In this document: in pieces, positions 165-61,567 of the stretch
Position numbering within the stretch: the stretch's first letter is position 1
Layout of the letters: each line of letters starts with the position of its first letter
Assembly (NCBI GenBank): GCA_012295275.1
Contig: CM022670.1
Span: 33,480,001-33,544,000, forward strand
Length of the DNA: 64,000 bases
DNA from: Chrysomallon squamiferum
Lineage: Eukaryota > Animalia > Mollusca
Direction: 5' to 3'
Notes under the pieces: model-generated
Told to the model about the DNA's origin: nothing
The model's database searches: none
What the model saw: the letters and a program-made list of their open reading frames with translations, nothing else
Made by a program: the position numbers and the translations under genes

Positions 165-341
165 GCTGGCAAGTCATCGTGGGTAACTCCCATACACCAG
201 TTTTCTTGGAACAGTTTGCTTGAGGATTTCCCTCCCAGTAAACGTAACCAGATTTACAAGCATATGTGACTTCCATTCCGTCCGCCGACCTTTTTATCAC
301 TTCAGCGCCGAAAAGCTCGGGCGTCGTTTTACATTCATTTG
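165..341 (-). CDS. Gene A CCP/sushi domain exon
   Basis: 177 nt: NECKTTPELFGAEV...YACKSGY...[18 protein letters not shown], with four Cys and the conserved Trp. Same length as the gene B CCP exon at 17222-17398. Confidence 0.88.
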
Positions 342-1546
342 CTGCTCATGTAAAAATTAACTGACTGCAGCTCAGTTGAAGAAATTAGCTATATTTACAT
401 ACACAGACAAACACATACGCACGCATGCACACTCACACACAGACAGACAGACACACACACACAATATGCCCATTGTGTGTTATGAAATAAATTAATTTCT
501 GTAATGGTAGTGGTATATAAATACGAATAAGTAAAATAATATATTTATTTATTTAGAAATGAAGACAAATATTAATAAATCCAGTATACTTTTCCTATCT
601 CGTTAGATAATGTTAAATAAATAAATAAACTTTCTTTGTTTAACGAACAATAAATCAACAAACACAAACAAACATACACACACACGTGCAGAGAAACAGA
701 AATACATATCAGTCTATATTTTGCCGACGTTTTCGAAATATTAAACCATTATCATGATTATAATTTGATGAAAATCGGCTTCATGCCAAATCTAAAAACA
801 ATAAATTTTCAGAGATATGGTTTGATCTCAAAAAGATTATTTAATTATTAATGTTGGTTTATTTATTAATTTATTTCTTCATTTGACCAAAACTTAAAAT
901 AAATGAATAAATTTAATAAAATAAATGCAGACCTTCGCATCCGTTTCCGTTATTGGTAAATCCATCTTTACACTGACAGACAAATGAGCCTGCGGTGTTT
1001 GAACAGAAAGATGTTTCATCATCACAGTCAGCAATTCCCATTGCACATTCATCTTTGTCTGCAAGTATATAATTTTTAGCATTTTAAAATATTGCTATAA
1101 TATATATTGGTATGTGCTGTATAATGCCATGCGAAACTAAGACATTTTTTTTTTTTTTGTCTGAATTTGTTAATAATAAAATTATAATGGTAACGAAGTA
1201 ACAATTCAACAAGTGAACTGAAAATTCTTAATCCATTTTAATTTTGCTGCATAACTAAATAACAATTCTATACATGAACTGTAAATTATTCAGTCGCTCC
1301 AATGTTATGTTGTAACAACATTTTGTTTTTGTTAGAGATAAATAAATAGTTAAAACGAAAAAAGATTCCTTTACCTGAACAGCCTTTTCCATTGTCTGTA
1401 TATCCCTGTTTGCACTGACAGGTAAAAGATCCAGCTGTATTTAAACAGGTAGATGTCTTCTCATCACAGCTGTCAGTTCTTAAACTGCACTCATCCACAT
1501 CTTCAACGACGACATATAATATACATATATTAGCGTAATGCTGTGT

Positions 1547-1623
<77 letters not shown>

Positions 1624-4600
1624 ATTAAATATGTAACAATGATAAATAAATAATTCCATACATGAATTGTAAATTTTCAATCCCACTCAATTTTTATTAT
1701 GTTGTAAAAAAGATAATTACTGTGTAATAATTTTCTTTATCTTTTGTAAATAAATAAATAAATAAAACTACATATTTACAACGAATGAAGATTCATTTTA
1801 CCTGAACAACCTTTTCCATTGTCGGTATATCCCTGTTTGCACTGACAGGTAAAAGATCCAGCTGTATTTAAACAGGTAGATGTCTTCTCATCACAGTCAT
1901 CAGTTCTTAAACTGCACTCATCCACATCTTCAATGAAGACTTAATTTATATATCAACTGAAAATCGCTGGATTTATGTTTGAAATGCATAATCACTAAAT
2001 AACAATTCTATACATGTACTATAAATTCCCAAACACCCTTCAGTTTTTCTACATTGTTAAAAATTTACTTAATAAGATGATAATATCGTCTTTGTTAGTT
2101 TATCATAGATAAACGCAATATCTCTACATGTCGTTCCGTTTTTAACAAATCCATCTTTACAGTAACATTTGTAAGATCCAATCGTGTTTGAGCAATATGA
2201 TGTTTCACTGCAGTTGTGAGTTCCCAGGCTGCACTCATCTTTATCTGTTATATCAGAGATACAAAATAAATTTATTTCTACAGTTTAACTTATGTGTTGA
2301 AAACAACGATAATGTTAGAAAAGGCATTTAAACTTAAGTTTTATATTAGCTTGTTTTGACAATTTTAAACGTTTTCGCAGTTACATTTGCCTAATAGTCC
2401 TATGTTGGCAGATTTAAGATTAACACCACTGTAAGCTGCCATTTATTGTAACTCTGTATAACAATAGTATGTATACAAAGTATTTTTGCTTGGTCTCTTA
2501 GTGATCACGGACTGAAAAAAAAACAAAAAAAAACAAAACGCACTAAAGTTTAACACCTCATATTTACAAAACTGTTTGCAATATTCATTTTGTTATTGAC
2601 CGTTATCTGTCGAAATTTCAGTTTACTGTCTGCTGCAGTTTTTACATTAGGACAAAATCAAAATTTTATACTGAAAAGAAACTGTTCGAAAACACATGCG
2701 CATCCTGTCAGTGAGTACATTGCAGTGACACCTGTCACTCAAGTGTCGTCTGGCTCGAATATTAAATTAATGTGTTTTTGAGTGCACGGCATTTTTTTTA
2801 ATTTTTTTAAATTTTTTTTATTTTTTACCCTTCTGATATAATTTTCAATATAGTTTAAATTCCATTTTACAGAAAAATGAATAATAAGAAGGAGTTAACA
2901 CTAGTTATAGTGTGTAAGTTAATTGCTAAGTAATATAAGACGAATTTGGCGACACATTTAAATTCGAAAAATATTAATGTTATACCTTCGTCATCGCAGT
3001 TCTTTCCGAAATATGCGCCTTTGCATTGACAGATATAAGAACCACCATCGACTGAACATTCACCTCCATTACTACAAGGACTGCTAGAACATGGATTCAC
3101 CAGTGCAGCAATGTCGGCTATTGGTAAAGTAAGTTAACTACTTCATAAAAAGTTTTTCTTAATATGAATTATGGGAAAAATGTGCCTCAAAAATAGGTAT
3201 TTAAAAATAATTTTGACTTAGGTCTTCTAAGAGAAAGTGTTTATAAAAGTAATTGGTGATGTAAAAATGACTAACTCATAATATTTCAGCTACGCAAACT
3301 TTAAAAAATATTCTGAAAAGTCTTAAATGATTTAAACTATCATCATTTATCTTCAGTATTTAAAATACAAAATTACAGTACATAACATTACCATGCGGAG
3401 AAGACAGTAAGACCAAATAATATGATACATACCTAAGTAATTTTAAAGCAAATATTATTCATTAATATTATAGGCATTTTTTAATAAAAATTAAATTATT
3501 ATTATTATTATTATTATTTTTGAAGTTACTGAGAAAGATAACTAAAAGGATAAATAGTTTTAAACAGGAAAACTTTGCAAAATTTCTACACACTGTAGAA
3601 CTGAGAAAATATTCAAGTACCTTTATGAAAATTATCTTCCAAATATTTGACACGTTTTAGAAGTTGTTCACTTGAAGTAGACGGTTTAAAGTTTGACAAA
3701 GAAACAGATATCCCGAACACGAATATAGAATCTTCTGTTTCAAAAAAAAAAAGAGGAGAATATTTATATATATTAACTGAAAGAGTTACTTAAAATATAT
3801 CTTACAAAACTGACAATATATAATATATTTAATTTTCTTCTTTTTTTCTGCTATTTGAAGCAATTCAGAAATGAATTAGAAAATAAAGATTTATTATTAT
3901 TATTTTTTAGACGGCTCACATCTTATATTATCTTAAAGTGCATTACAGAAACAGATTTACATTAATAAAGATTACTGCTAGACGATATAAAATTTTACAA
4001 CATAATTCTGTGTTTAAAATTTAACCTGATTCCTGTGGTTTAAAGTCATCTTCATGCTCTACCATTTCTACAGTGACTCCGTGGATCTTCATCAGCTTGT
4101 TTATATCTGATTCCAGTGTAGAACTGAACTCTTTTTCCCATTCAGGACTTAAACCCGATACAGCACTATGCAGCGAAGGATCATCTGAAACTAATAATAA
4201 TAATTATATCAACAACAATACCAATAATAATAATTATAATGATGATGATGATGACAATAAGTAGAAAATATATTTGTAACTGACCATTATGTAGTGTTAG
4301 CGCAACCTCTCGACTGTTGACTACCCTTTTCCATATATGTAACAACGGCGTCATCTGCTTCATCGCCATCATCATCCTCATGATCATCAGCAGCAACAAC
4401 ATAATAATGATGATGATAATAATAATAATAACAACAACAGTAGTAACAGTGATAACAGTAATAACAATTATAATGAATTTATCGTAGATGCAACAATGGT
4501 AAATAGAGAAACTTGAATCTTACTGGAAGAATCGTCAAATTTATGAAAGCTCTGAAGTCGTTTAACACGATGTTCCAAATCTTCGTTTTCTTTCGGCGGA

Positions 4601-4833
4601 GGTGCTATGTCTTTCAAAAATTTAGAAGACGCAGCATCTATTTCTATTGATTGTTGCACATCCATATCGCCAAACGGCGCGCTGAAGTCGAACTGTCTAT
4701 CACCGTTATTCTGAAAATTAAACTCCTCTTTAAATACACTGTCACCGGTAATTTGGAAATCAAAGTCATTCTCCCCGACAACTAATTTGTCATGAAGACA
4801 GCAAAGAAGAACAGCCAAAACATAGAAGAACAT
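165..4833 (-). CDS. Gene A: secreted EGF/cbEGF-array + CCP(sushi) protein, paralog of gene B; 3' end lies beyond the left edge of the window
   Basis: Exons on the minus strand, all joined in phase 1: 4833-4524 (signal peptide MFFYVLAVLLCCL, acidic region, [10 protein letters not shown]); 4184-4026 (LESDINKLMKIHGVTVEM); 3734-3621 ([16 protein letters not shown]); 3117-2986 (EGF NPCSSSPCSNGGEC); 2244-2122 (cbEGF, donor reads AT not GT); 1927-1802, 1500-1375 and 1058-933 (cbEGF D[VK]DEC..CxNTxGSFxCxC, 126 nt each); 341-165 (CCP, ...[10 protein letters not shown]). All junctions are AG/GT except one, and the exons match gene B in order and phase. Confidence 0.9.
933..3117 (-). CDS. Gene A EGF block: 1 EGF + 4 calcium-binding EGF exons
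   Basis: Six-Cys EGF spacing; D-x-D-E-C and C-x-N-x4-[FY]-x-C Ca-binding/hydroxylation consensus; one domain per symmetric phase-1 exon. Confidence 0.9.
4524..4833 (-). CDS. Gene A exon 1: signal peptide + acidic FDF/FNF region + RVKR
   Basis: ATG at 4833 preceded by an A-run; hydrophobic N-terminus; gtaag donor at 4523; 310 nt, phase 1, same as paralog exon 1. Confidence 0.88.
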
Positions 4834-5165
4834 TTTTTTTATTAGAGCGATTTGTTTTTCAGTAAACAGCAGCTTAGGATTAATTTACTGCAGTTACATT
4901 AACGAATCTTGTGTGTTCGTATTAAATATTTAACTTTTTTGTTTTGTTTTAAAATACCATGGTCTCTCCGCTATAATGCTGACAAACATATACACACGAG
5001 ACTTTATTTGTAAGAATATAGTTTACGGTTTGTGATCATTGGAGAATAACTCTAAGGTTTGCGTTTGCGTGCATACTCTAGATAATAGCTTGTGCAGATA
5101 AAAACGTGTTATTCAAAGCCTGTAATTACAAAGCTACTTGCAGTAATCTTTGTGCCAAGACAGTG

Positions 5166-5222
<57 letters not shown>

Positions 5223-5981
5223 AAGCAGGCAGACTGACACACCTAATCGAAACTGACTGCTTACATGATAACATGAACATGAAAAAAAAAAAAAAAAAAA
5301 ATTGATCCTTTATGACATGTTGATCGCATTGATCTGGTCATGTTAAATACTTTCGTCTTTTATCATTAAATAAAGATCACATTAGAATTCTTGGTAGCAT
5401 AATTCTAGATGGTAAGATTATTGGTTAGAAGTAGATTTAATGCGAGGTTGTTGCCCTCATATTAGTGTATTTATTTCGAAAAGCCTGATTTTTACGTTAA
5501 GCACTCGTCTGCACGCAAGCGATCTAGTTTATGGACAGCTCTCTGTATCAGTCTGCGTGTGCATCTGTAAATATATTTCTCTGCATTAATCTGAATGTTC
5601 ATTTCTCTCTCTATCAAAGTGTGTGCGATTGTGTATTTATGTGTATTTATTTTCTCTATATATTTACAAATATTTATTCTATGTTTACTCGTTATTTTTA
5701 TTATTATTTTTATTATTGTTACTTTAAACATAAAGAGTTATCATTTCCATCTCTGAATTATCTGTTTTCATTTTCTAAAATATTATCAATAGAATCATGG
5801 CTTTTTTGTTATCAACAACAAGCATCATATTACTTTAAAACAGAATGTTATCAACATGGTATTAATTTTATGGTGATAACATTGACAGATATTGTTGTTG
5901 TCTTTGAAAAACACGAAATTCACATGAAGTTGAGAATAAATAAAACACGAATACATATACATATTTTTTATTTCTACCAAA
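4834..5981. promoter_or_regulatory. Intergenic spacer of the head-to-head pair; candidate shared bidirectional promoter
   Basis: Only 1148 bp separate the two divergent ATGs; the spacer includes an (AG)n tract at ~5169-5217. Transcription start sites are not identifiable from sequence alone. Confidence 0.6.
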
Positions 5982-6360
5982 ATGTCTGTGTGGATATTGG
6001 TGTTTATTTTTGGTCTTAATGTGTACGTCTTTGGTGGCGCAGATTTCGACTTCCATGACAACGGCGACGATTCCTTTGACAATAACTTTAATTTCGAAGA
6101 CACGCAAAGTAGGTTCGACTTCGAAGACAATGAGGGAAGTAAGTTTGATTTCAAAGGCAGCGAGGGAAATAAGTTTGATTTCGGAATGCTAGAGGAAGAC
6201 CTTTTGAGTCACATCAAAGCTGAAACCCCGATAGAAGTCAATTCTCAGGTTATCGACAATTTGAACTTTTTAGAAAAAGGTCCGGATAAGAGCGAGGAAG
6301 ATGATTTGAAATTTCGTGTGAAACGTTTACAAAGTTTCCACAAAGACCTGGCATCGTCAG
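5982..6360 (+). CDS. Gene B exon 1: signal peptide + acidic FDF repeat + RVKR
   Basis: AAAATG start; [18 protein letters not shown] hydrophobic leader; CAG|gtaagt donor at 6361. Confidence 0.9.
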
Positions 6361-6649
6361 GTAAGTAATGTAGTTTTAATATTCTAGCCCAGAAATAAAA
6401 TTAATTAATTAATATTAAATAGAAGAGAGAAATATGTTCCTCTATAAAACAACAAATATGATATTATATGGCTATAAAATGATTTTGATAATTATGTTGA
6501 TAATACTTAAAATAATAATGATGGTGTTGGGAATTTGGTGATGATAATATTATCATTTATTGTCTTCTTTCTATCTTTACTATTATCATTATCATAATAT
6601 TGTACATCAATCTTGTTTTTGCTGTTGTTATTATTATTGTTGTGTTGTT

Positions 6650-6708
<59 letters not shown>

Positions 6709-7730
6709 CTTATATCCGAAACCATCAGTTACATTAAGGTAAGTTTACCATATCAGATTTCATGTTAAAAGATTCTGATTATTTACTTAATTTTCGACAT
6801 GATTATGCGTCTATCTGTCTGCTCTACCAGTCTTTATAATCTGTGCCAGTGACAAAACAAAAACAAAAAATATATATATATTAAAAATTATAATAATAAT
6901 AAATAAAAAGAAATAAAAATAAACAAAAGATACATACACAAACTCACTCTCACACACAGACTCGTTCATACATACATACAGTGACTTACGAGTTTAATTC
7001 GTTCCGTGACCGAGCTCGTATCTCAATTTGCTCGTATATCAAATCAATTTACCCAACTGAAATTAATTGAAATACCATTAATCCGTTCCAGCTCCCCCAA
7101 AACCACCCCAATGTTTTATAACGTGTTTTTAAATAAGGAAAATGTATTTATATATGACAAATATTGTATAAAAAAAAACTAAATAAAAGAGATTGTAAAG
7201 AAATAAATTGGTTTTGTTAAAGTGCTTCTGCGTTCAGTATGGTACATATCGTAGAATTACTTAGCCAAGTCGACTACATGCAAATCTCGCTCATGTTTTT
7301 CAAGCTTTAATTCAAAGGACATCATCCGCTTCTTCTTCTTCCTTGGCACTCATTTTCTTAGGATCCATTATCAGAAAAAAAGAAATTTGGCAAAATACTG
7401 TACAAACTCGAGCACATCACAGCAGAGACGCTTCCGCGGCAAGTAAACGTGAAGTAAACGAGTGAGACGCGGGATGCTGGCCGGATGTTATGTTGTTCGT
7501 TGCACCAATAACGGCGGCTTATCTGAAGCTCGCTCGTAACTCGGATTTTTAGCTCGCAACTCATGGCACAAAATCAAACAGGCGACTGCTCGTAAATCGA
7601 AAAACCCGTAAGTTTGGCACTCGTAAGTCGAGGAACCACTATATATATATATATATATATATGTACACAAAGACACACATACATACGTGCAAAAATATGC
7701 CAGTATGTTTATACAATTATAAATATATGC

Positions 7731-7770
<40 letters not shown>

Positions 7771-10205
7771 TGCAGATGGTCCCACATTTGGTGTGCCTAT
7801 AGCAGGTCTGGATTTTCAACCAGGAAAGTCATCAGCAGGTTCCGCACTGGAGTCAGACATAAATCAGCTAATGAAGAAACACGGAGTAACTGTAGAAATG
7901 ATCGAAGGCAAATCTGAAGAGGACACATCTGACTTCACAGACTTAGGTGGTAAGACAGATACATAAATACATAGAAACTTTTATACTTACATAGAAAACA
8001 CACACACACACTCACACACACACACACTCACACACACACTCTCACACACACACACACATACAAACATACAGATATACATACATATGTACATAACGTTGTC
8101 CGTCTTGCGAGTGCGGGCGAATGGGTGCCACACGTTCGAGTCTCGTCAGCGGCATCAGCGGAGTTTGTGAGATCGTGATTGAACTTTGTCCTTCTGTGCC
8201 AGTGCATCCCCAAATATTGTCTATGTGGAGAGTCTGATCAGACGTAAGAAACCAATCAAATCCTAACTACATGCATATCCATATACACATAATAATAATT
8301 ACCACAACAACGAAAACAACAACAAAAACACCACCAACAACAATAATAGTTTGAATGCGATCAATATGTGGTAATAATTTCTTAAATAGTATTTTAGAGT
8401 AACAATAATAACAATGATAATCAACATGATGATGATGATAATAATAAAGGTGATTGTGGTCAACAATAATAATGAATCTTTTTTGTACACTTTGTCTTTA
8501 TAAAAAGACGGGGTATTTGGAATGCCAGTGTTATTTAGTGACTCGAAGGAGGTAACTATTGAACAGCTTCTGAAGAGAGTTAAATATCTGGAGGATAACT
8601 TCCATAAAGGTATGTATAAAGTATGTTTGTGAATGAACGTGTGTGTATGTATCTGCAAGCTTTTGTTTGTTCATGCATTTGCAGTCAAATGTTTGTGTAA
8701 ATACCTACATGCAGTTGTTTCTACGTAAGTGCTTACGTTTATATTAATGACTTTATACGAAATGTATATACTTGTGTTCGTTAAAATATATTTGATTTAT
8801 CTACATTAAACTGTTTTGTAAGATTAAGATTTTAAAAATATAATTGTCTTTACAAAAAAATATATCTTTGAAAACTGATTTATTAAATCATAAATTTTGT
8901 TAGGATGACTAGTTTTAAATTTTTGTTTTGTTTTTGTATAAACAAATAATGCTGACATTACTTCTATTATTAACCTAAGCTTATTATTAGCGTGTTTTTC
9001 TATTTAAAAAAGAAAAAGACAAAATCATATTATCGTTTAAACCTCAAATAACCTCTGGCGGCACCTCAATTAATGACAAATATTGTTATTCCTAATAAAC
9101 TGAATACTCGATTCATCTTGCAATTTTCACAGAGGACATCGAAGGATCATCAGATCCGTGTTCTAGCAATCCCTGTAGAAACGGCGGAGATTGTTCCGTC
9201 GTAGACAAGTCATACACTTGTCATTGCGATGGGAATTTTTATGGAAAGAACTGTGAGAATCAAGGTAGGAATTTTTTAAATTGCGTTTTATATTTACCAT
9301 CTACATTGTCTAATTTTGACACTTCATTTGTTCCACAATATTTTATGCAGAGTAACAAATTTTGTGATTTTTTTTTTGTCTTGTTTTCAAATAATATTAT
9401 TCTTATTATGATTAAGAATTAGTATTAAAATATGTATAATCTTCTTTTCAGATGAAGACGAATGCAAAAAGGGAACTCATAACTGTGATAACACAACGTC
9501 AACTTGTTCAAATACAGTTGGATCTTTTATTTGTCAATGTAAAGAGGGATTTTTTGACAGCGAAAACGGGTGTTCAGGTATTTTTACTAATTCCATATTT
9601 CAAATAGGTAAAAATCCATAACAATTTTAGTAAGCATCTGAAATGGAAAAAAGAAATAATCCTGATTCAAATTATAGAGAAGAGTCAAATAAAAATATTG
9701 TAGCGAGAAAACATTCAAAAAATGAAATAATTGAAAGTTCTGGTACAGCCAAAATCCTGTTAAATGTTTCATTTCAGACTGCAAATGTGCCTACCTGAAA
9801 TATTTGTTTGACAAAGAGAAAACGTGTTATAGCTTTAGACAGAAGACTGCTTTTGCCATATATATCTAATACAGTGAAGTCTTTTTTTTCAGATGTAGAT
9901 GAATGCAGTGAGGGGACTCATAACTGTGATGACAAGACGTCAACATGTTTAAATAAAGTTGGATCTTTTACCTGTCTGTGCAGGGATGGATTTTTTGACA
10001 ATGGAAAGGGATGTTCAGGTACTTTAGTAATTCTATATTTCAAATTATCCAGCAGTTTAAATTAAAAATATTGTAGAGAGGAAATTCTTAACAAAAAAAA
10101 AAAAAAAAAAAAAAAATAAAATAAAATAAAATTTAAAAAAATAATTAAAATCATTAAAATGAAAAAAAATGAAAAAAAAAAAAAAAAAAAAAAAAATAAA
10201 AAAAA

Positions 10206-10260
<55 letters not shown>

Positions 10261-11129
10261 AAAATGAAAATACAAATAAAATAAAATAAAAAATGGTCAG
10301 GTATATCCAGCAAATTATCAAATGGTTTCATTTTAGACCGAAAAAACAGCAATCCAAATCAGCAGTTTTTACCATTGATATCTAATACAGTAATTTCATC
10401 TTTCAGATATAGATGAATGCAGCGAGGGGACTCATAACTGTGATGACAAGACGTCAACATGTTTAAATACAGTCGGGTCTTTTACTTGTCAGTGCAAGGA
10501 TGGATTTTTTGACAACGGAAAGGATGTTCAGGTATTTTTTAGTAAATTTATATTTCAAATTATCTAGTCGTAATTTAGCAAATTCAGATATTTGTTTGAC
10601 AAAGAAAAGACTAATTAATTTTTTAGACAGAAAACTACCACTGATATCTAATGCAGTTAATTTCATATTACAGATGTGGATGAATGCAGTGAAAGAACTC
10701 ATAACTGTGATGACACGACGTCTACCTGTTCAAACACCATTGGATCTTTTACCTGTCAGTGCAGAAAAGGATTTTTTGACAATGGAAAGGGATGCTCAGG
10801 TATTTTACTAAATCAGAATTTCAAATTATCCATTAAGAGGTGAGGATCTACAGAATTTAGGTTTATATAACTGAAAACGTAACAAAAAATAATTTAAAAT
10901 AACTCCTGATTTAATCTACAGAGGAAAGCCTAGACTGATGGAATAGTTTGAAGGAAGCTTTTCAAAGTAATTAAAATAAAACAAATGTTCACGGGCATTC
11001 GTTATATTTTCAAATTTAGTTTTTGAAAGCAAATGTGGTAAAATAACATATTATAATATACTGGGAAAATAGCAACATTTTTTATCATTAATAATCAGTT
11101 TGCCCAAACCACATGTATTTTTATTTATT

Positions 11130-11186
<57 letters not shown>

Positions 11187-14100
11187 TTTTTGTTTGAGGT
11201 GGGTCTGTCATATGATTTGAATAACGTAAGTCTCGATCATTTGAAAGTTTTTAACCTAAGACACACTCATATCTGAAATCACTTAATATCTGTTAAAAAG
11301 GTTAGTTAGAAAAGGAAAAGAAATAATTATGGTTTTAGTCAGATTTCTGTTTTTACCACTGATATGTAATGAGTTAAGCGTGTATTTCAGATGTAGATGA
11401 ATGTGAGTACGGAACCCACGACTGTGAGAAGAAGACGTCAACATGTAAGAACACATTTGGATCATTCACCTGTCAGTGTAAAAAAGGATTTGTTGACTAT
11501 GGACTGGGATGTTCAGGTATTTATTTCGTGAATATTTAAAACAAAATCAGTGTGGACCAGTGTTGGTTTAGTTTTGGACAAAATGTAATAAAAAAAAAAA
11601 AAAGAAAAAAAAACAACAAAAAAGACATCGTTAATATTTTATGTTTTGTCAGTAATCAGTAGTACGTAAGCGAATTTAAATAATAATAATAAAAAATAAA
11701 TAATAATCTTCTTGAAATCAAAACTGAAAATTTTTATTTATCATATATGTAACTCACAGTAACAATTCTAAATGAAAATGAATATAGTCTAGAAACTGAC
11801 AGCTATGATAAAAAAAAGATCTGTTACAACATCTTTGGATCATTTAATTTTAAAACATTTAAGGTACGATTTATCAAATGTTAATCAGTTTTGCACTAAC
11901 AGCTAATTAGTTCAGATATGTATTGCCATGTTGTGTTGTTTTGTTCAGATGAAAACGAGTGTAGAATGGGAACTCATGACTGCGATGAAAAGACGTCTGT
12001 TTGTTTAAACACATTCGGATCATTCGCATGTCGGTGTAAAAATGGGTTTGCTGATAACGGAATGGGATGCACAGGTTTTTTTCCGTTTTATTTTATTGAA
12101 AATTTGAAAATGTTGAACTGAGTTAAATACATTATCTTTTTATCAGTAAATGAAATTAAAGACAAAATCACAGAAAAGTTGAACTTTGTTTTCGAGAACG
12201 TTTTCTGGAAAAAAACTAATGTGATCAGAGTTAAATATTAAGGAGAGATATGTTCAAAAAATCTGTATTATTTATTTATTACGTACAGCACCAGAAAATC
12301 AAAACACAGTTTCGGAAATTCAAATCTGTTTTATTAACATTAGCATTATTATTATTAGTTTTGTTTTGAAGCATTCATAGTAAAAATAAAAATTAATACT
12401 GAAATATGAGAAATTTTTGTTTCAGATATAGACGAATGCAAAAAGGAAACAGATAACTGTGATGACACAACGTCTACCTGTTCAAACACTATTGGATCTT
12501 TTACCTGTCAGTGTAAAGATGGGTTTTTTGACAACGGAAAGGGATGCTCAGGTATTTTATTAATTCAGAATTTTAAATTATCCATTAAGTGGTGAGGATC
12601 GGTGGGAATGTTTGTAATTATTTGATATAACAACAACAACAAAAATACAAAAAAAACAACAACCAACAAAACAAAACAAAAACACCCAAATAAAATAAAA
12701 TAAAATATAAAATAATTTAAAAAAATGCTGATTCAGTCTATGGATAATTGTTTTATTTATCTTCGAATGACACCCAGTAGCCAATTTTTGGTGCTAGGAT
12801 GTTGTTAAACAAACAAAGAAACAGATAACGGGAGGAGAGCCTAGATGAATGGAATTGTATCAGTTAAATATTCAGCATTTATAATATTATTTAAAAAATG
12901 TTCTCGTACATCCAACATACTTTTAAATTGTTTCATTATGCAAAATTACCTGTTTATAGGAAACGATCCATCAGACCATTTTGTGAATAAGTTGATACAT
13001 CTAAGAACGGAGAAAAAGGAAAAATCAACCACAAACCCCCCAAAAAACCTACAAAACCCAGCAATCCCCCAGACACCCTCCCCGAACAAACTATTAGACT
13101 AAAACAGTTATATCACTGAAACATTCCGAAAGAAATATTTCAAAGTGTTTCTTTTTATGTCGCAAATATGGCAACATATAACATTTTAAACTCAGTTTTC
13201 TTTAAAAATTCTGCTGTATTCTTTAAGAATATTCAACATTATTAAGATCTGTAATTTAACTTAATTTGTTTTGGTTTTTTTAATAAAAGTATCTGAAAAA
13301 AATAAAAATAAATAAAAAATAAAATAATTTTCAAAGCCAAAACAGCAACAACAACGAAAAGTAGATTGAACAGGCACAAAAAACAAACAAAACAAATACC
13401 TCTCCAAAAAATATTTCTATATATTAACGTATTTTATTGTTATTATTTTTAATTTCTATTCATCATAATGTATAGACAGATGTATAATAACCTGTTTTAA
13501 TTTTTCAGATATAGACGAATGTAGCGAGGGAACACACAGCTGTAAAAATGTGACGTCAGTCTGTATTAACACAGTGGGTTCATTTGAGTGTCAATGCAGA
13601 AAAGGATTTAATGCAGTCCAAGATGGATGTTTTGGTATTTTGTAATATAATTTTTAAAGCATTGGATTAAAAATCAGTTTACTTTTGTAAGTTTACATCC
13701 CTTTAACATAACATGCAAGTTTATCAAGTTTTGTAAAATAGAATAATCAGAAACATTTATACATACTTTCCCATACGTGCGTTTTGAAATAATAGGATTT
13801 ATTACTGATGAATGCTGTTGTGAATCAGAGGTTATGTTGGGGCTGGACTGGAACGTCATGAGTCATAAGATTAATTCTCAAGTCGGTGTCCCATTATTTG
13901 TAAGATTCTGTATGATAAACTTTATATTTTTAAAATCAATGTATATTTGAAACTTTCATTGATTCGTACGTCCATCCATAATTCATTCAGTCATTCATAT
14001 CCCCATCACAGCTCTTTCTTTGTTATATTTTCAGATATCGATGAATGCTCCATGAAGACTGATACCTGTGACTATACGACATCAAGCTGTGTAAACACTG

Positions 14101-14552
14101 ATGGGTCATTTTACTGTGAATGTGTTCAGGGATACGTTAAATCTGGAGATCAGTGCATAGGTATAAAGAAACAAAAAATTAAATACAACGAAAACAACAA
14201 AATTATAGATATGTAATACGTAGAGAGTAAGATCTGAAGAGAACAGAATTCGGTTTTTAAACTTGTGGTATTAGACTGGTACCCAGAGCAGTACGAAAAA
14301 AGAAAAAGAAAAAAAGATCTAATAAAATTCCTTATGCTTACGAATATCATTTTAGTGTTTTGTGCGTCTTATCGTAGCTTTTGGGGGTTTATAAAACAGT
14401 ACTGTTACAAAGCATCTGGAAGCAGCCACTTCGATCCTTCAGAAATATAGCGATGACGTCATCGCGTGCATTGCGAACTGGTAGATGTAGTTCTTACTTG
14501 ACAACACTAGAAAAAACTTTACAGAAAATCTGTCCGCACAGTGTCCGTTACA

Positions 14553-14636
<84 letters not shown>

Positions 14637-15211
14637 TATAACTGTTCTGTAAAATTAAGTGGTCTGAAAAAAAAAGAAGAAATAATAATAATAACAACAG
14701 AAAAAAATATAATAATAAAAAAAGAGAAGAAGTAAATGAAGTATAACCTGAAAGCGTGGATAATTTTATTTCGAAACACCGAATATACGCTTTAAATAGA
14801 AAAATAATATACAAATCAGTACTACAGTATATTAGTACGACGTATGTATGTATGTATGTATGCATGTATGTATGTATGTATACCAAACATATATATATAT
14901 CACATACAAGCCTACAATCACATACATACAAACATATATACATGTATACAGACATCTGTATTTAATGCGTGTATTAAAACTGTTTACTTGAAGTAATTAA
15001 ATTATAAATTCACTTTTTCAGAGGACAGTGGAGCATCTGGATATACTGGAAATGTCTGTACGTATGTTACTGGTTAAATTAGTCATAGGCTACATTGATC
15101 AGTTTTAGTGTCGAATGATTGCTCGTATAATGTATAGGAAATAATTTTCAAAATTAATAACAATAATAATAATAATAACAATGATAATAGCAACAACAAC
15201 AACAGTAATAA

Positions 15212-15250
<39 letters not shown>

Positions 15251-16502
15251 ACAACGATAAAAAAAAAAAAAAAAAATAAATAAAAAATAAAAATAACAAG
15301 ACATAACAAAAAAAAATTAAAAAATGAAAGAAACCAAAGAAAACAAAGAAACTAAAATTAAAGACCCCTCCCAAAAAAAAAAAAAAAAAAAACAACTTAA
15401 ATGAGCATACTAGTTTATAACAAATATCACGTGCTTAGTAAACTAATAGTCTTATACACTAAATGCAAACGGTGCTAACACTTAGATTTAGTTTCTTTCA
15501 AAAGTTAGTATGGTAACAGATTCGAGAAAAGGATGAAGATTAAAATCAAAATATACTGTCTTATTTTTGTATTTATTCCAGACAACACAGATCTGTGCAA
15601 TGGCAAATGTGACAAAGATACATCCGAATGTGTGGGCGATGATTATTTTGCATATTGCGAATGCAAATACGGATACATAGACTACGGCTACGGATGTACA
15701 CGTAAATTAATATAGATCATTCTCATTACATCTACAATAGTGTTCATTTATTCAGAACGAATTTTAGTTTAGGATTAGAACGTTAGCCTCGGTGTAAGCA
15801 TTTCTGTGGATCAAAAGCCCTAAGTGCTCCAGTTTTGGGTATATCTCGATTCATTTGGTGTATGAAATGCCTTAACGTATACTTTATAGTTTGTGAAAAG
15901 TGGATATAATTTAACCAGTGATGCTGCTTAATAAATTTAACATAAGAAATAGTAACAGCTACTTTTCTCTGTCGTATGATCATTTTAAAGAAGGGATATG
16001 GTGGATTGTTAACAAAGATTTGTCTAAAAGTTGTTAAATAATTAATCATTCATTCATTCATCTGTTAAATCATATCAAGAAAGAAAACCAACCTGTGTTT
16101 GATCTTAGAGTTTAAAAGATAATAAAATAGAAAATAAATTAAATAAATTAAATAAAACTTAAATAAAATAATACCCACAAACAAAAAGCAACAATCTACA
16201 TATTAACAAAAAATAAAAAAATAAATAAAATAAAAAAATAAAATGGCTTTTCACTTTTATCCCTGAATCTAAAGTTCTGAACATAATAACAGCAGCATAT
16301 AGTAGTTGTTGATTTAAAAAAGAAGTAAAACTAATATAATGTTTGTCTTTCAGAATATACAACGAGCTTAGATGTGTGCGCTGACTGTGACAATGATACC
16401 GCTACTTGTGTGACTAATATGTACTCATCTTTCTGTGACTGCAAAGAAGGATATATATTTGATGGGTTAGGATGTATAGGTAAACTGATACATATGTGTG
16501 TG

Positions 16503-16534
<32 letters not shown>

Positions 16535-18281
16535 TGTGTGTGTAAATTATCCAGTGTCATTAACTGGGGAACGTAATCGATGGAACTTCTATTCTCAGGT
16601 TATCATTATCCCAAAAGAATATAATGATGCTGATAAATAACAATTTGTAGATTCATATTTTGATATACCTTTAAAGATTAATTAATTCTTTCATTTGTTA
16701 AATTAAACTTTTCGTATGAAATGTTTTCGTGCAAATTCATAACAAACCAACACAAATCGAAATTTCATTATCTGAAATGCAGCTTCTATTTCTCTTTCTG
16801 TTTATTCATTTTTTGATTTATTATTATTTTTGTATTATATAATTTATTTTAGCATATCATCGTTTATATATATAAAAAATATATTAATGCTAAATACATA
16901 TACAAATTATATATGTATATATATATGTATGTATGTGTGTATGCATGTATGTATGTATATGTATGTATGTATGTATATATGTATGTATGTATGTATAAGT
17001 ATAATTTGTAAACGTATTTAGCATTACTGAATATTTTCTTTACTATGTTCAGTGGGGTTTTCTTTTCACTTTTTTCTTTTTTACTCCCCAAGAATTTTAG
17101 AAAAGGGAGAGTTTATGATATAGTTTACATAAATGATGAGTAGCTATGAGACTTTCCACAAATATCTGCTTTACATAAAGTTTTGTGTTCTTATCTGTCT
17201 ATTTTTTTCTTCTTCGATTAGCGGTTGGATGTTTAAATACCCCAACACTGTTTGGTGCAGTCATAATAGAAATCTCAGAAGATAGTCTGTACGTAAAGTT
17301 TTCCTGTGGAGAGGGTTACAGAAATAGAGGAGGATATCCATCAGCAATTTGTTCAAAAGTAACTGGCGTATGGGAGCTGCCTACCATGATATGTGAACGT
17401 AAGAGCAAATCTGCTTTATCTTACATACATGTGATTTCATACTGCCGGCATCTTCCTAAATAACAATATAAAAAAATAATGCGACTTTTCGAATCTCTAT
17501 TATTGCATGTTATTTTTATGTCGTACGTTTCAGTGTATTTAATGTTTTATTATTGTTATTGTTTTATTGTTCTGCTGCAACTACTACTACTACGACTACT
17601 GTTACTACCACCACCGCTACTGCTTCTGTTACTGTTACTATTCTACTACTCCCTTTTGTTTTACTATCAGTCTTAATATTAGTATTAATTATTTTAATAT
17701 TCGTATTCGTATCCGATATGTATTCAGAAAAGTAGTAGTAGTGGTAGTAGTAACAGTCGTAGTAGTAGTAGTAGTAGTAATAGCAGTAGTAGTAGTAGTA
17801 ATAGCAACTGCGGTAATATATTGCCCAAACACAAAATATCATGTTATCCTGTCCGTATTAACATAATAATATATTACATTCATCAGCAACCGAATGCTTC
17901 ATCCGAGTCGAGGGACATGCTTACTATGCTGGGAAGCAAAATAAAGCCAGGTCAAACAGTATGGTGTGTGGCCGATTTGATTCCCCTGAGCTGATAGCTG
18001 AAAAAAAGGAAATCTTGTACCCGTACTACTTCCATGTGAGCGACATTTCAGACGTGAACGATTACTGCAGAGATCCTTTCAGTTCTGGCACACCCTGGTG
18101 TTTCACCAATGCCACGGGGAGAACAAACAGATCCTGCGATATACCAATGTGTGAACCAGGTACTAACAAGAAGTACACGATTTTATAAAGTTTAGCATAC
18201 GTACCACTTAGGTGTAGTCCGGAAAAGATGCTTGTTGTTGTTGTTGTTCTTGTTTATTGTGGGTGGTGGTACTGGTGTAAA

Positions 18282-18337
<56 letters not shown>

Positions 18338-19568
18338 GTGTCTGTGTGTGTAACTGAAAGTATTATACAGAAAGTTTCAAGTTAAACTACATGTAATTCT
18401 TACGTGTTAGTCCATTAGGCACTGTGAATCTTTTTGATCAGTATCAATTTCTCATTTCTTATTTATTTCGGTAAAGATTGGAAAATTTGAATTTCTGTTA
18501 ATCTTGTGTCATTAATTTTGTCGTTCAGTTATTTTCAATACTTTTCAGGTTTCTACACTGAATTATTATTATTATTTTTTTCTTCTTTCTTTCTTCATAC
18601 CAGGTTCGAACTGTACCGTAGCGCCTTTTGTACCTGGTGCCTCTGTCGCTTCCATGACAAAGGATGCAGATGGAACGGTGAGTGCGACGTACGAATGTCT
18701 TGATGGACTGGTACAAGTAAACAATCCAGTCGCAGTGTGCAAAGGCGACAAGGATGGAGATGAAGAATGGACTGTTGCAAACGTTATCTGTGCTCGTAAG
18801 ATTTTAGCAGCGTCTGCTGTAATTACATATATAAATATACCCATTTGTACACATACGCAAACATATGCACATACATTATGTATATGTAAATACATACATA
18901 CTTAAAAACTTAAAAATAATACAAATACATACATGCATAAATACAAGCATGCTTCACATTACATCTTCCTCTGATATCCACGAGTGGTTTATCTAAAACA
19001 AGGTGGTTTTTTCCCGCTTATGGGAATGTTGCTATAAAACTATCCTTTGCTACTAAACGAGAAAGAGTAACCCTTTAAATGAAGGGTGACTTTGAAAATT
19101 GCTTTTGGCTGATTAAACAAATATTAAGACACCCATACCGTCTTAGATTAAGAATATTTTGAATGCATCATTACATAAAACATTTCTTCAGTTTTGAAAC
19201 ACACGTTTACTTTATAATGTATTGTCTTCTTTTTCTTCTTGTTATTATTATTATTATTATTATTGTTATTATTATTGTAAATATCTTTAGCGAAAGACTG
19301 CTACATGTTAGTAAGAGATTCCCGGGAGACTTTGGTGGCTGCTTACTCTGGAAGACAGAACAAGACCATCAGTGGACTGGAATGTCAACGCTGGGAGGAT
19401 GCTGACGAAGACACAACTCATTTTGTCACAGGCGAAAGTGTCCACGACGCCGGCAGCTACTGTCGCGACGGAGTCGGGCGGCTGAAGCCGTGGTGCTACA
19501 CAACGCGAACGTACACGTCGTGGGAATACTGCAGTGTCAGACCCTGCAGTTTCATGAACAATATGTGA
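5982..19568 (+). CDS. Gene B: secreted modular protein, SP - acidic repeat - RVKR - helical blocks - 12 EGF (9 Ca-binding) - CCP - kringle - CCP - kringle (~1040 aa if the 1-nt deletion in exon 7 is repaired)
   Basis: Exons: 5982-6360, 7776-7949, 8508-8609, 9133-9264 (EGF); cbEGF 9452-9577, 9893-10018, 10407-10531 (125 nt, frameshifted), 10674-10799, 11391-11516, 11949-12074, 12426-12551, 13509-13634, 14035-14160; linker 15022-15057; EGF 15582-15701, 16354-16479; CCP 17222-17398; kringle 17887-18159; CCP 18604-18795; kringle + stop 19291-19568. All are AG/GT and phase 1 apart from exon 7. Confidence 0.92.
6979..7641. mobile_element. Non-autonomous Tigger/pogo-like (Tc1/mariner superfamily) DNA transposon/MITE in gene B intron 1
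   Basis: Left end TA-CAGTGACTTACGAG; right end CTCGTAAGTCGAGGAACCACT-ATA (reverse complement AGTGGTTCCTCGACTTACGAG). These are terminal inverted repeats with TA flanks, and the left copy has a small internal deletion. Subterminal CTCGTA motifs are repeated. No transposase ORF. Confidence 0.75.
8090..8261 (+). mobile_element. Probable tRNA-derived SINE in gene B intron 2
   Basis: GC-rich island in an AT-rich intron with a Pol III B-box-like GTTCGAGTC (8134-8142) and a 3' tail GACGTAAGAAACCAATCAAATC; A-box degenerate. Confidence 0.5.
9133..16479 (+). CDS. Gene B EGF array (1 EGF, 9 cbEGF, 36-nt linker, 2 divergent non-Ca EGF)
   Basis: Repeated 126-nt exons such as [42 protein letters not shown]. 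The last two EGFs lack the DxDE Ca-binding start. Confidence 0.92.
12766..12817 (+). mobile_element. SINE 3'-end remnant
   Basis: AATGACACCCAGTAGCC...GTGCTAGGATGTTGTTAAAC(AAAC)n resembles molluscan SINE tails (recognised from memory, not searched). It is absent from the paralogous intron copy at ~10905-10940. Confidence 0.45.
17222..17398 (+). CDS. Gene B CCP/sushi domain 1
   Basis: [14 protein letters not shown]...FSCGEGY...[18 protein letters not shown]; 4 Cys + Trp; gtaag donor. Confidence 0.9.
17887..18159 (+). CDS. Gene B kringle domain 1
   Basis: ECF...[18 protein letters not shown]...[16 protein letters not shown]...CDIPMC: six Cys with the Y-x-G, YCRDP, PWC and CDIPxC kringle signatures. 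Confidence 0.9.
18604..18795 (+). CDS. Gene B CCP/sushi domain 2
   Basis: [13 protein letters not shown]...ATYECLDGL...AVCKG...[10 protein letters not shown]; 192 nt, phase 1-1. Confidence 0.82.
18978..19073 (+). mobile_element. Degenerate Meta-domain-like SINE core
   Basis: CCACGAGTGG...TGGGAATGTTGCTATAAAACTATCCTTTGCTACTAAACGAGAAAGAGTAACCC resembles the molluscan MetaSINE central domain (from memory). Weaker look-alikes occur at ~15824-16040 (+) and ~35540-35570 (-). Confidence 0.5.
19291..19568 (+). CDS. Gene B kringle domain 2 and stop codon (terminal exon)
   Basis: DCY...[18 protein letters not shown]...SYCRDG...PWCYT...WEYCSVRPC, then TGA at 19566-19568. Confidence 0.92.
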
Positions 19569-19644: not shown

Positions 19645-19665
19645 ATTAAAGATCTGCGTAATAAA
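19645..19665 (+). terminator. Candidate polyadenylation signals of gene B
   Basis: ATTAAA (19645-19650) and AATAAA (19660-19665), 80-95 nt after the stop and followed by T/GT-rich sequence. Confidence 0.45.
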
Positions 19666-22327: not shown

Positions 22328-24659
22328 GTTTGTGTGTGTGTCTCTCTATTTCTTGCTATGTTTTGTGTTTCTGGAACCAGCAAATGATATCAATCACAGC
22401 CACAATATCTGTTAGTGCAGAACTTCTTCTTGGTGGTTGATCAAGTGAAAGTAATAACATTAAATCACTTTCAAACGTTATTTTAATAAACGTGCTTGCG
22501 CTATAAGCACAACCAAATATCTTCCCAAGTGACAAAGGAACCTCGTGTTCCTTTCATAATTTGACTGAGAGTAAAGCTAGGAGGTAGAACTGTATTAATA
22601 ATAAATACTAAACTGAATTTTCAAACTAGAAGATTCACTCATTTTATTTAATTCCTATTTCAGAAACATTCTGCAGTGTCATACAGGAACTCATAACTTT
22701 TTACCAATAGAAAAAAGCTAAAGAATAACACACAAGTATTTGTTAGTCATTTATAACTGATATTTACAGTCGATGAGATACTTCTGCGGAGTGAAGTTTA
22801 TACCTGTGGCCATTCAGGTCCTTGTATTAATCTTGAGAATTAAATTCATTATAATTAACTCAGCAGTGACAACAATCAATACACCTACATGTTCTCAGTG
22901 AAGCGTATTGATGTATTATTTCCTAAGTAAAGGAAAAACAAAAATTAATGCAATAATTAGTTGAAATTTAATCATAATTGATGTAGAAATAGTGAAATAA
23001 AATAGCGGATATTATCTTCTTTTTTTTTTTTTCTTTTTTTTAAAAGACATAATGATGACAATACTGGTAAACTGTATTGAATGATAAATATTTGAACAAA
23101 TCTTTAATGATATATTCTGCTAATAACTTGTTATTAATTTGTTTTTGTGCAAGGAACAGTGGAATGAACAAACCTATTCTCGCCACCTCAAAGTTTTATA
23201 ATGCTAAAGAACAACATTGGACCTTGTAAATGGAACTTTCTAAACAACATACACACCATAACTTTTAAATGAATATTTTTAAAGAACATATAAACCATAA
23301 CTTTTAAATAAATCTTTCAAAATTACATACACGTCATAACATTTGTAAGACGTTGTGGAACGAGTAATAGTCAAATGTACTTACTGAGGATATATTGTCA
23401 ATACTTTATTAATAACAAAGATGGATGGCCTGTAACAAACAGAAGAATCATTTGGAAGTAAATAAAATATATTTAGATAGTTCATTCGCAAAACGTCAGC
23501 TACCTTTCAACGTTTCAAAGCAGAATTAAAACAAACAAACAAACAAATAAAAAATAATAAATAAAAAATAAATCAAATAAATAAATGTGAATCCTAAAAC
23601 TAAACAATATAAAAACAAGTCAAACAGTTTAACAGCCTTTATGCCAGTCACCCCAAAAGGTCATTCATTACATATAGCTTAAAATAATGTCCACAGAAGA
23701 AAAAAAAAAAGAAAAAAAGAAGCGAAATTCGTTAAGTGCTTTCTACAAACACGTGTTTATAATAATAATTATAAAGACGTATTTCTATGGTACAGTCAGA
23801 GAATAACGGTGCTATAGTTAAACTCTGCCACAAGCTGGAAGAAAACCAAGATCCATTGTGTTGTTTATTTTGTGATATCGTCGTGGGAGACACGCTGAAA
23901 ATAATGCTGGCTGTCATTCGAGACATACTGCTTTTAAGGCACATTTCCAGTCGTCAAGTGATAGTCAAGGTCCAGCGTAATTTCATACCCGTTTATTTCA
24001 GAGAAAGAGCAGACTGGAGCGATACATGAAAGTTTAACAACATGACTGATTGGTTTGTGGAAAATAGAATACTTATATACCTTTGAACGTATTTATCCAT
24101 CTTTTAGTTCATCCATTCATACATACATACATATATAGATACATATAAAGATACAAATATATATATACATACACATACATACATATATACATTAGTGAAA
24201 ACGTGCATAAATATATACACATAAGCATACATATGTATATATATATATATATTTATTTAAAGTAATCAGTTTTTAAACTGAATAATTGCATACTGAATGT
24301 AATAACAATTACAAATTGAACATTATGAACAGCATACAGTGCATATAATACATAAGCACATAAACACACACACACACACAAACACACACACATGCTGAAG
24401 TATTTGTTTGTTGACTTTGCGGAAAGGATTTCAAAAAGAAGTGTTTTGAGATTCGGCTAAAGATAAATACACTAGACAAAGTAAACATAAAAATTTCTCC
24501 AGAAAAAAAAAGAAGAAATGTATGAAATTAAGTATTACTTTCGGAAATTAACTAACAAGCACTCAACCACTCAGTATTTTCAACAACAATACTTTACATA
24601 AACAAACCACTAACGTAAGTAAACATCCATTACACATAACGGTATTCGATCTTGAACTG

Positions 24660-25320
24660 GATGGAGTGAGGGAAAAACTAACTGGGGTGGGGGCAGTGCC
24701 TTGTGGGGTTGGGGCAGTGCCGTTGGGGTTGGGGGTAGTGCTAGTTACGTCTGATGGTAATTTAGGCAGTGTGACGGTAAATAACGGTATATGTACTCTG
24801 TATCACTCAGCCGCATTAACCAGTAATCGCCATGGATTTTACCGATCTTTACGAAAACACACAAAGCTTTTACTGTGATCGATAAATCGCAATGTGACAG
24901 CACATTTACAGCGATCATACTCAGACCTCAGTCACCGCGTTACGAGTCTTTAAATCACGTCTTGCATAGTCTGACATGGTCTTGCACGGCCCCGAAATCT
25001 CATTACATACGGAATACCCATGAAAAGGTGAACCGTGTTATTGCAAGGGTCAGCTGGTGTGAAAAATCAATGGGCGGATTTCATTGGATACCATTCACTT
25101 ACTGTAGCCGTACGTATAAACGTATAAGACGTATATGCGTACGTTCCAGTGGTCATGACGCAAGTTGTGGTCTTGCTCTGCAGGGTGTGGTCAGTGAGGC
25201 TTTATTTAACTTTGTCATCGAGTGTGCACGTGTGGTCAGTGTTACAATAGAGTCGACGTTAAATTTAGTTCACTAAGAGATGGATACCTGAAGATAGGGG
25301 AGTCTCGTACTGAAGGTAAG
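24660..25320 (+). promoter_or_regulatory. CpG-enriched region; candidate promoter and non-coding first exon of the PDE10A gene (donor at 25316)
   Basis: Locally raised GC/CpG content, a G-tract repeat, CACGTG and TGACG motifs, ending in a strong donor AAG|gtaagc at 25315/25316. The exon at 31048 has a strong acceptor that needs an upstream donor. Confidence 0.45.

Positions 25321-31109: not shown

Positions 31110-61567
<30,458 letters not shown>

What the first reader, a model, noticed from the sequence alone, without database searches (positions are those of the whole stretch)
165..19568. Head-to-head paralog pair encoding an unusual secreted EGF-array/sushi/kringle protein family - candidate co-expressed hetero-oligomeric matrix system
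Seen: two genes arose by inverted duplication. They share exon order and phase and diverge from a 1148-bp spacer. Gene B is complete: signal peptide, acidic FDF region, RVKR, two conserved helical blocks, 12 EGFs, CCP-kringle-CCP-kringle, stop. It has no protease, transmembrane or GPI-like tail. Known: collagen IV alpha-chain genes are arranged head-to-head, share promoters and co-assemble, and cbEGF arrays form rigid Ca-dependent rods (fibrillin, fibulin). I do not recognise this exact architecture as a named protein. Inference: a co-regulated two-chain extracellular scaffold, adhesive or recognition system (e.g. skin, mucus, egg-case or shell matrix, or immunity) with chains of different rod lengths.
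Basis: partly seen in the sequence, partly recalled or inferred. Interest (0 to 1): 0.85.

Follow-up and report, generated by a model that had tools for sequence, protein, structure and literature searches.

The report
Head-to-head tenascin-like EGF-kringle gene pair
Two related animal genes sit back to back and encode likely secreted proteins with EGF-repeat arms of different length (12 and 5 repeats), sushi and kringle ends, and an identical short helix predicted to bundle chains into trimers; the domain order seems new, but the parts and the layout are of known kinds.

Summary
The pair is real. Genes A (minus) and B (plus) diverge 1148 bp apart (ATG to ATG), share exon order and phase-1 introns, and carry EGF, sushi (CCP) and kringle domains as described. 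Two blemishes were missed: B's fourth EGF exon is one base short (frameshift as assembled; skipping it keeps the frame), and one A donor reads AT, where a public DNA run reads GT. New here: the N-termini hold three short heptad helices. Helix H3 is 16/16 identical between A and B despite saturated synonymous sites and carries the R-h-x-x-h-E trimer motif just before the first EGF. RVKR lies inside a similar helix and is followed by Leu, so it is probably not a furin site. Best reading: a tenascin-like layout (trimer knot, EGF arms, binding heads) built independently; A and B chains could mix if co-expressed. One RNA run holds a spliced B contig and an A exon contig; shared promoter, co-regulation, assembly and tissue remain untested. 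No orthologue or same-architecture protein was found, but searches were limited to single exons. Verdict: new variant of a known kind, moderate interest.

The parts
4524..4833 (-). Gene A exon 1: predicted signal peptide, acidic Phe/Asp-rich region, helix H1 (4540-4569, [10 protein letters not shown])
4026..4184 (-). Gene A exon 2: helix H2 (about 4057-4113)
3621..3731 (-). Gene A exon 3: helix H3 with R-h-x-x-h-E (3622-3669); tandem acceptor also possible at 3734
2986..3117 (-). Gene A EGF1 (not calcium-binding type)
2122..2244 (-). Gene A cbEGF; donor reads AT in the window, GT in run X2
1802..1927 (-). Gene A cbEGF (recent duplicate of the next exon)
1375..1500 (-). Gene A cbEGF
933..1058 (-). 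Gene A cbEGF; covered by an RNA contig of run X1
165..341 (-). Gene A CCP/sushi 1; gene continues past the window edge
4834..5981 (.). 1148-bp spacer between the two start codons; no inverted-duplication remnant; TSSs unknown
   Evidence: (66 of 200 shuffles reach the observed score)
5982..6360 (+). Gene B exon 1: predicted signal peptide, acidic Phe/Asp-rich region with a 30-bp repeat (6107-6182), helix H1 (6315-6344)
7776..7949 (+). Gene B exon 2: helix H2 (about 7847-7903); spliced to exon 3 in an RNA contig
8508..8609 (+). Gene B exon 3: helix H3 with R-h-x-x-h-E (8561-8608)
9133..9264 (+). Gene B EGF1 (not calcium-binding type)
9452..14160 (+). Gene B nine cbEGF exons: 9452-9577, 9893-10018, 10407-10531, 10674-10799, 11391-11516, 11949-12074, 12426-12551, 13509-13634, 14035-14160
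10407..10531 (+). Gene B exon 7: 125 nt, one base short, frameshift as assembled
15022..15057 (+). Possible 36-nt linker mini-exon (AG/GT, phase 1-1); unverified
15582..16479 (+). Gene B EGF11 (15582-15701) and EGF12 (16354-16479), divergent, no calcium consensus
17222..17398 (+). Gene B CCP/sushi 1
17887..18159 (+). Gene B kringle 1
18604..18795 (+). Gene B CCP/sushi 2
19291..19568 (+). Gene B kringle 2 and stop codon; AATAAA at 19660

Best explanation
A and B are old inverted paralogues encoding likely secreted chains that are predicted to bundle into trimers through a short N-terminal coiled coil and would project EGF arms (12 repeats in B, 5 in A) ending in sushi-kringle heads that likely bind extracellular partners. 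Shown: gene structure, domains, purifying selection on the helices, the R-h-x-x-h-E motif in H3 directly before EGF1, one spliced B contig. Inferred: secretion; parallel trimer through H3, helped by H1 and H2; calcium-stiffened arms (cbEGF consensus with fibrillin-type spacing; rod behaviour recalled from fibrillin); heads as multivalent binding modules, not lysine-binding or proteolytic. Because H3 is identical in both chains, nothing in it would tell A from B, so mixed trimers would form wherever both are made (my odds for real A/B mixing about 0.3). The job is most likely matrix cross-linking or surface recognition; the tissue is unknown.
For: H3 16/16 residues identical with 9 synonymous differences, H1 10/10 with 7, H2 15/18, while whole exons 1 and 2 are 39-42% identical and dS is saturated or above 1.2: selection, not recent conversion. 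All six helices share core layers L(d)-V/I(a)-L(d)-H/F(a). H3 matches Arg(g)-h(a)-x-x-h(d)-Glu(e), described as specifying parallel trimers (PMC3653964, passages); 223 of 20000 shuffles of B's N-terminus contain it, 3 of 20000 contain two R-h-x-x-h-[EQ] (motif chosen after seeing the sequence). Tenascins put a 24-27 aa heptad stretch with central RhExLE before their EGF arms (PMC11401434, passages). AlphaFold models give helices at H1 (103-125, pLDDT about 70) and H2 (pLDDT 79-86). cbEGF consensus in 4 of 5 A and 8 of 11 B EGFs counted without exon 7. No TM or GPI-like tail. Both genes appear in RNA run X1.
Against: Each helix spans only about two heptads and B has no Cys before EGF1, whereas tenascin-C trimers are also held by disulfides. 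The motif also occurs in dimers and antiparallel trimers. Models rest on two sequences, pTM 0.19 and 0.31. RNA support is thin: one study, contigs of depth 2.5-7, two of the A-locus contigs include intron, no strand or level. B is frameshifted and one A donor is broken in the window as assembled. No orthologue was found, so conservation is known from two paralogues only. A's C-terminal half is unseen.
Confidence: 0.5

Rival explanations
1. The three helices of one chain fold on each other (an intrachain three-helix bundle or cap), the proteins are monomeric rods, and the head-to-head layout is only a by-product of inverted duplication; A and B act separately.
For: Three short helices per chain in the same register, joined by 25-45-residue linkers; H1 and H3 look like internal repeats (4, 27, 41 and 288 of 3000 shuffles in four comparisons). 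An intrachain fold would also explain purifying selection. No promoter remnant in the spacer.
Against: H2 is not a significant repeat of H1 or H3 (176-1712 of 3000 shuffles). 100% identity of H3, including outward heptad positions, fits a surface shared with other chains better than a private core (inference).
Confidence: 0.27
2. RVKR is a proprotein-convertase site: the acidic Phe/Asp-rich segment is a propeptide removed on secretion, releasing an active EGF/kringle ligand or unlocking assembly, as in HGF-like or fibrillin-like precursors.
For: R-x-K-R is the only such motif in each chain and is conserved; the segment before it is acidic (B 17 D/E and 11 F in 55 aa) and variable in length, as propeptides often are (recalled).
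Against: P1' is Leu; furin cleavage is reported incompatible with an aliphatic P1', and a P1' Ser-to-Leu peptide was not cleaved (PMC3713968, one passage). The site lies inside a predicted helix. Exon 3 repeats the motif as RVKY-LE without the P1 Arg. This rival can coexist with trimer formation.
Confidence: 0.15
3. The pair is decaying: B is frameshifted and A mis-spliced, so no full-length product is made.
For: 125-nt exon 7 in B and AT donor in A in the window; low RNA cover.
Against: Run X2 reads GT at the A donor, and differs from the window by several single-base indels, so the window holds errors or alleles. The missing base lies in a G run. Exon 7 versus its sister exon: pS 0.22, pN 0.05. 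Skipping exon 7 keeps the frame. All other exons are open with full Cys sets.
Confidence: 0.08

Closest known systems
Tenascins (works like; not a member)
   Same: Signal peptide, short N-terminal heptad stretch with an R-h-x-x-L-E motif, EGF arm of variable length among paralogues, C-terminal binding head (PMC11401434).
   Different: cbEGF rather than tenascin-type EGF; no assembly cysteines, FN3 or fibrinogen globe; sushi-kringle heads; three helices; tenascins are described as chordate proteins.
Fibrillin / fibulin cbEGF arrays
   Same: Tandem cbEGF exons with C-x-D-x-D-E-C junctions; profile hits fibrillin-1, NELL1/2, Notch, uromodulin EGFs.
   Different: No TB (8-Cys) or fibulin C-terminal domain among the exons found.
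Plasminogen / HGF / apolipoprotein(a) kringle family
   Same: Two six-Cys kringles; best solved matches are plasminogen and HGF kringles.
   Different: No PAN or protease domain; the acidic pair and Arg of the lysine-binding pocket (positions recalled) are not kept.
Gigantopelta aegis 'plasminogen-like, partial' XP_041346654 (P0124)
   Same: Alternating sushi and kringle modules without protease; its sushi is the best match to the A/B sushi profile among 150 kringle hits (2.4e-8 in a 150-protein search).
   Different: Order KR-KR-CCP-CCP-KR-CCP, no EGF array, partial model, low identity; not an orthologue.
Collagen IV COL4A1|A2 gene pairs (layout only)
   Same: Head-to-head paralogues encoding extracellular chains (PMC12141075, passages).
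   Different: No collagen or NC1 sequence; shared promoter and heterotrimer are shown for collagen IV and untested here.
Limpet mucus protein P-vulgata_14
   Same: Secreted gastropod protein combining kringle and two sushi domains (PMC7333891, passages).
   Different: It is an astacin metallopeptidase with ApeC, CUB, lectin and ShKT domains and no EGF array.

Membership tests
Tenascin | N-terminal heptad repeats with central RhExLE | tested here: inconclusive
   H3 reads R-V-K-Y-L-E: fits R-h-x-x-h-E, lacks the Glu at position 3; only about two heptads
Tenascin | Assembly-domain cysteines | tested here: not met
   0 Cys before EGF1 in B; A's two Cys are in the signal region
Tenascin | Tenascin-type EGFs, FN3 repeats, C-terminal fibrinogen domain | tested here: not met
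   Pfam gives EGF_CA, Sushi, Kringle; no FN3 or fibrinogen hit on 27 exons
R-h-x-x-h-E trimeric coiled coils | Arg(g)-h(a)-x-x-h(d)-Glu(e) in heptad register | tested here: met
   H3 of both chains, h(a)=Val, h(d)=Leu
R-h-x-x-h-E trimeric coiled coils | Parallel trimer in solution | not testable with these tools
   needs biophysics on the recombinant region
Fibrillin/fibulin | Tandem calcium-binding EGFs | tested here: met
   EGF_CA above cut-off on 9 B and 4 A exons
Fibrillin/fibulin | TB/hybrid domains or fibulin C-terminal module | tested here: not met
   none among the exons of B
Plasminogen/HGF family | Kringle domains | tested here: met
Plasminogen/HGF family | PAN domain and C-terminal trypsin-like domain | tested here: not met
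   stop and poly(A) signal follow kringle 2; no further candidate coding exon of that kind before the next gene; A's end unseen
Plasminogen/HGF family | Lysine-binding pocket residues | tested here: not met
   alignment to plasminogen kringles; pocket positions recalled
Collagen IV-type head-to-head pair | Divergent paralogous genes | tested here: met
Collagen IV-type head-to-head pair | Shared bidirectional promoter and co-regulation | not testable with these tools
   only contigs were available; they show no TSS, strand or level
Collagen IV-type head-to-head pair | Chains co-assemble into heterotrimers | not testable with these tools
   needs co-expression and pull-down
Furin-processed precursor | R-x-K-R with permissive P1' in an exposed loop | tested here: not met
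   motif present, but P1' Leu and predicted helix; cleavage itself untested

The most novel reading that the evidence does not exclude
An independently evolved, two-chain 'tenascin' of an invertebrate: one bidirectional promoter drives A and B, whose identical H3 helices mix into heterotrimers with long and short arms, while H1 and H2, which place His at a core position in all four copies, act as extra pH- or metal-switched stickers that cross-link trimers into a network on secretion.
Probability: 0.15. Interest if true: 0.7.

Novelty: new variant of a known kind. Interest (0 to 1): 0.4.

Why it matters
If the trimer reading holds, an invertebrate lineage rebuilt the tenascin design (short trimer knot, EGF arm, binding head) from other modules by phase-1 exon shuffling, and tunes arm length by exon duplication. 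With an identical assembly helix in two divergently transcribed paralogues, it is a compact test of whether head-to-head layout is kept for chain co-assembly outside collagen IV. If the chains are monomeric or separately expressed, it is one more lineage-specific mosaic extracellular protein, of which invertebrate genomes hold many.

Tried and rejected
No whole genome is held for this window, so A's 3' half and further paralogues could not be sought; within the window tblastn finds no third paralogue. Word-seeded homologue searches: B exon 1, 0 of 90 candidates at E<=1; sushi alignment, 0 of 568 at E<=0.1; a sushi-kringle stretch of P0124 gave 35 hits of 50 candidates: itself, 33 vertebrate plasminogen-type proteins by name or domains, and one SRCR-kringle protein. 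Metagenome contig scans: 0 of 337 and 0 of 592 pattern matches confirmed. These are weak negatives. The Atlas could not take B exon 1; with P0124 it gave no feature hit and only TM<=0.35 structure rows. Alignment A5 misplaced kringles on the sushi and was dropped. Complex prediction of two B exon-3 peptides with one A exon-3 peptide: no answer (score 0.22, mark 0.34, controls not folded). PDB search with B exon 3: 0 hits at E<=10. No fold search was run on the two low-confidence models. Spacer inverted symmetry: chance level. Recent gene conversion as the cause of H1/H3 identity: rejected, synonymous sites differ. The hydrophobic peak near B's EGF12/CCP1 boundary (KD19 1.75) lies in disulfide-bonded domains and was rejected as a TM helix. 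H2 as a third repeat copy: not supported statistically. Runs X3 and X4: listed pieces lie only on the intronic repeat; the table was cut, so this shows nothing. Peltospirid shell and sclerite proteome paper PMC11871041: no 'kringle' or 'plasminogen' in main text or in 4 searched supplement files, one cut when stored and one further file unreadable; it does not bear on function while the window's species is unknown. Three look-ups of earlier findings returned nothing.
Full report
Observation. The window is AT-rich (23-36% GC per 2 kb), microsatellite-rich animal DNA with GT-AG introns; no genome is held for it and I did not determine the species. Reading 1-24000 and fixing exon ends by script gives gene A on the minus strand (9 exons, 4833 to 165, 463 codons open, running off the window) and gene B on the plus strand (19 exons plus a possible 36-nt mini-exon, 5982 to 19568). 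The start codons are 1148 bp apart. Every intron is phase 1. A's exons match B's in order: exon 1 (E 3e-11), exon 2 (E 2e-12), exon 3 (70%), EGF1, cbEGFs, CCP1 (E 4e-21). Pfam on 27 single exons confirms EGF, sushi and kringle calls; B has 12 EGF exons (11 with a Pfam hit), A has 5. B ends with a stop after kringle 2 and an AATAAA 92 nt later; the tail is hydrophilic. A scan for further exons beyond 19600 gave 10 candidates, none resembling a protease or anchor by eye, two of them in the next gene; 18 long open frames beyond 19600 gave no Pfam hit above cut-off.

Blemishes. B's exon 10407-10531 is 125 nt: a G run is one base shorter than in sister exons, and the spliced frame stops at codon 432; skipping the exon leaves 998 aa open. 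A's exon 2122-2244 is followed by AT. Run X2 (kind not on record, 74% of words) reads the base giving GT there and differs from the window at several single-base indels, so the window carries errors or alleles; X2 may or may not be independent of the assembly. Reads were laid on the first 10 kb only, so the B frameshift is unchecked. Exon 7 has been under purifying selection (pS 0.22, pN 0.05 against exon 6), so an error or a very recent lesion is likely.

Expression. Of 4 runs laid (3 RNA from one study, all contigs), X1 holds a 349-nt contig joining B exons 2 and 3, a contig on B exon 1, and a contig whose placed part (129 of 153 nt) covers A's last EGF exon and ends at the exon end; two more contigs at A include intron. 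Depths are 2.5-7 and the piece table was cut. This shows that B is spliced and that both loci are represented in one sample; it shows no co-regulation, strand or TSS. The spacer has no inverted remnant (66 of 200 shuffles reach the score) and one TATA-like match at 5657, which is no evidence.

The N-terminus. Between signal peptide and EGF1 there are no cysteines; an acidic Phe-rich stretch is followed by three short helices. A and B have saturated or near-saturated synonymous sites, yet H1 is 10/10 identical (7 synonymous differences), H3 16/16 (9) and H2 15/18. All six helices have core layers Leu-Val/Ile-Leu-His/Phe in heptad register. H3 contains R-V-K-Y-L-E, the Arg-h-x-x-h-Glu motif described as specifying parallel three-stranded coiled coils, though also seen in some dimers (PMC3653964, passages). 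H1 contains R-V-K-R-L-Q, the same pattern with Gln; H1 and H3 look like internal repeats with modest support (4 to 288 of 3000 shuffles), H2 does not reach significance. AlphaFold on two-sequence alignments places helices at H1 and H2 but has low overall confidence. Tenascins have the same plan: a 24-27 aa heptad stretch with RhExLE, then EGF arms, then a binding head, but add cysteines, FN3 and a fibrinogen globe (PMC11401434, passages).

Arms and heads. The cbEGF exons keep the calcium consensus and C-x-D-x-D-E-C junctions and hit NELL, Notch, fibrillin and uromodulin EGFs. Arrays still grow by exon duplication: A's two middle exons are 98% identical in protein with 89% DNA identity into the introns, B exons 6 and 7 87%. 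Sushi exons hit complement-regulator CCPs. Both kringles have six Cys but lack the acidic pair and Arg of the plasminogen lysine pocket (pocket positions recalled), so ligands are unknown.

Relatives. No orthologue was found. An exhaustive search with kringle 2 gave 2356 hits at E<=0.001, of which the best 150 were returned, 29-44% identical. With profiles built from the window's own exons, 10 of 150 carry an EGF or sushi beside kringles, none carries both, none has an EGF run, none matches the N-terminal blocks. Pfam on 106 of the 150 agrees. The ranking favours many-kringle proteins, so a distant two-kringle relative could lie among the 2206 not seen. The nearest sushi-kringle protein is a partial 'plasminogen-like' model of the vent snail Gigantopelta aegis, too distant to place the window's species. 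Other searches were empty or crowded by plasminogens; all used single exons, since no spliced protein was in the collections.

Literature. Searches for kringle+sushi+EGF-like+mollusc+secreted (3 papers, listing only), kringle+gastropod+mucus+proteom (1 paper) and kringle+mollus+sushi+calcium-binding EGF (0 papers) found no such protein; the library lacks most subscription papers and preprint supplements were closed. The limpet paper lists an astacin with kringle and two sushi domains (PMC7333891, passages). PMC13425148 (passages) reports EGF and sushi domains as common in lophotrochozoan shell proteomes and does not mention kringles; PMC11871041 (passages and supplements) has none either. Head-to-head paralogues that co-assemble are known from collagen IV (PMC12141075, passages).

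Mechanism and verdict. Most likely (0.5) these are secreted, trimer-forming arm-and-head proteins; identical H3 means A and B would mix where both are made (about 0.3 overall). Rivals: monomers with an intrachain helix bundle (0.27), furin-processed precursor (0.15), decaying pair (0.08). It works like a tenascin in layout but is not one; it is not a fibrillin, plasminogen or collagen IV family member. New domain orders made by phase-1 exon shuffling and head-to-head duplicates are both common kinds (own knowledge), so this is a new variant of a known kind. The strictly conserved helix makes the co-assembly idea testable and lifts it above a routine mosaic gene: interest 0.4.

Noticed in passing
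window 6980-7630 (B intron 1): A high-copy interspersed repeat: summed depth 45,000-57,000 in run X2 against about 50 elsewhere; ends look like a DNA-transposon remnant (recalled).
   Followed up: no
window 47278-47457 and 61395-61631 (+): Next gene, a cyclic-nucleotide phosphodiesterase: the second stretch hits the PDE10A GAF domain (E 1.5e-6); the first is a candidate exon that I read as its N-terminus from recall.
   Followed up: partly
window 2966/2967 (A intron 4): Contigs of runs X1 and X2 both hold about 49 extra bases here that the window lacks.
   Followed up: no
window 6107-6182: A 30-bp coding tandem repeat (2.5 copies) lengthens B's acidic Phe/Asp-rich region relative to A.
   Followed up: partly
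window 1375-1927 and 10674-10799: A's two middle cbEGF exons group with B exon 8 in a tree (support 0.85; about 82% DNA identity) although exon 1 synonymous sites are saturated: possible exchange of EGF exons between the inverted genes.
   Followed up: partly
window 4540-4569, 4057-4113, 6315-6344, 7847-7903: His falls at a core 'a' position in H1 and H2 of both chains; in a trimer this would make His3 layers, a possible metal or pH switch. Speculative.
   Followed up: no
window 24560-25280 (-): A GC-richer, non-microsatellite stretch with several open frames and a short Thr/Pro repeat; no Pfam hit above cut-off.
   Followed up: partly
P0124 residues about 238-283: The G. aegis model carries a Myb/SANT-like fragment between sushi domains, probably a transposon exon wrongly included in the model.
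   Followed up: no
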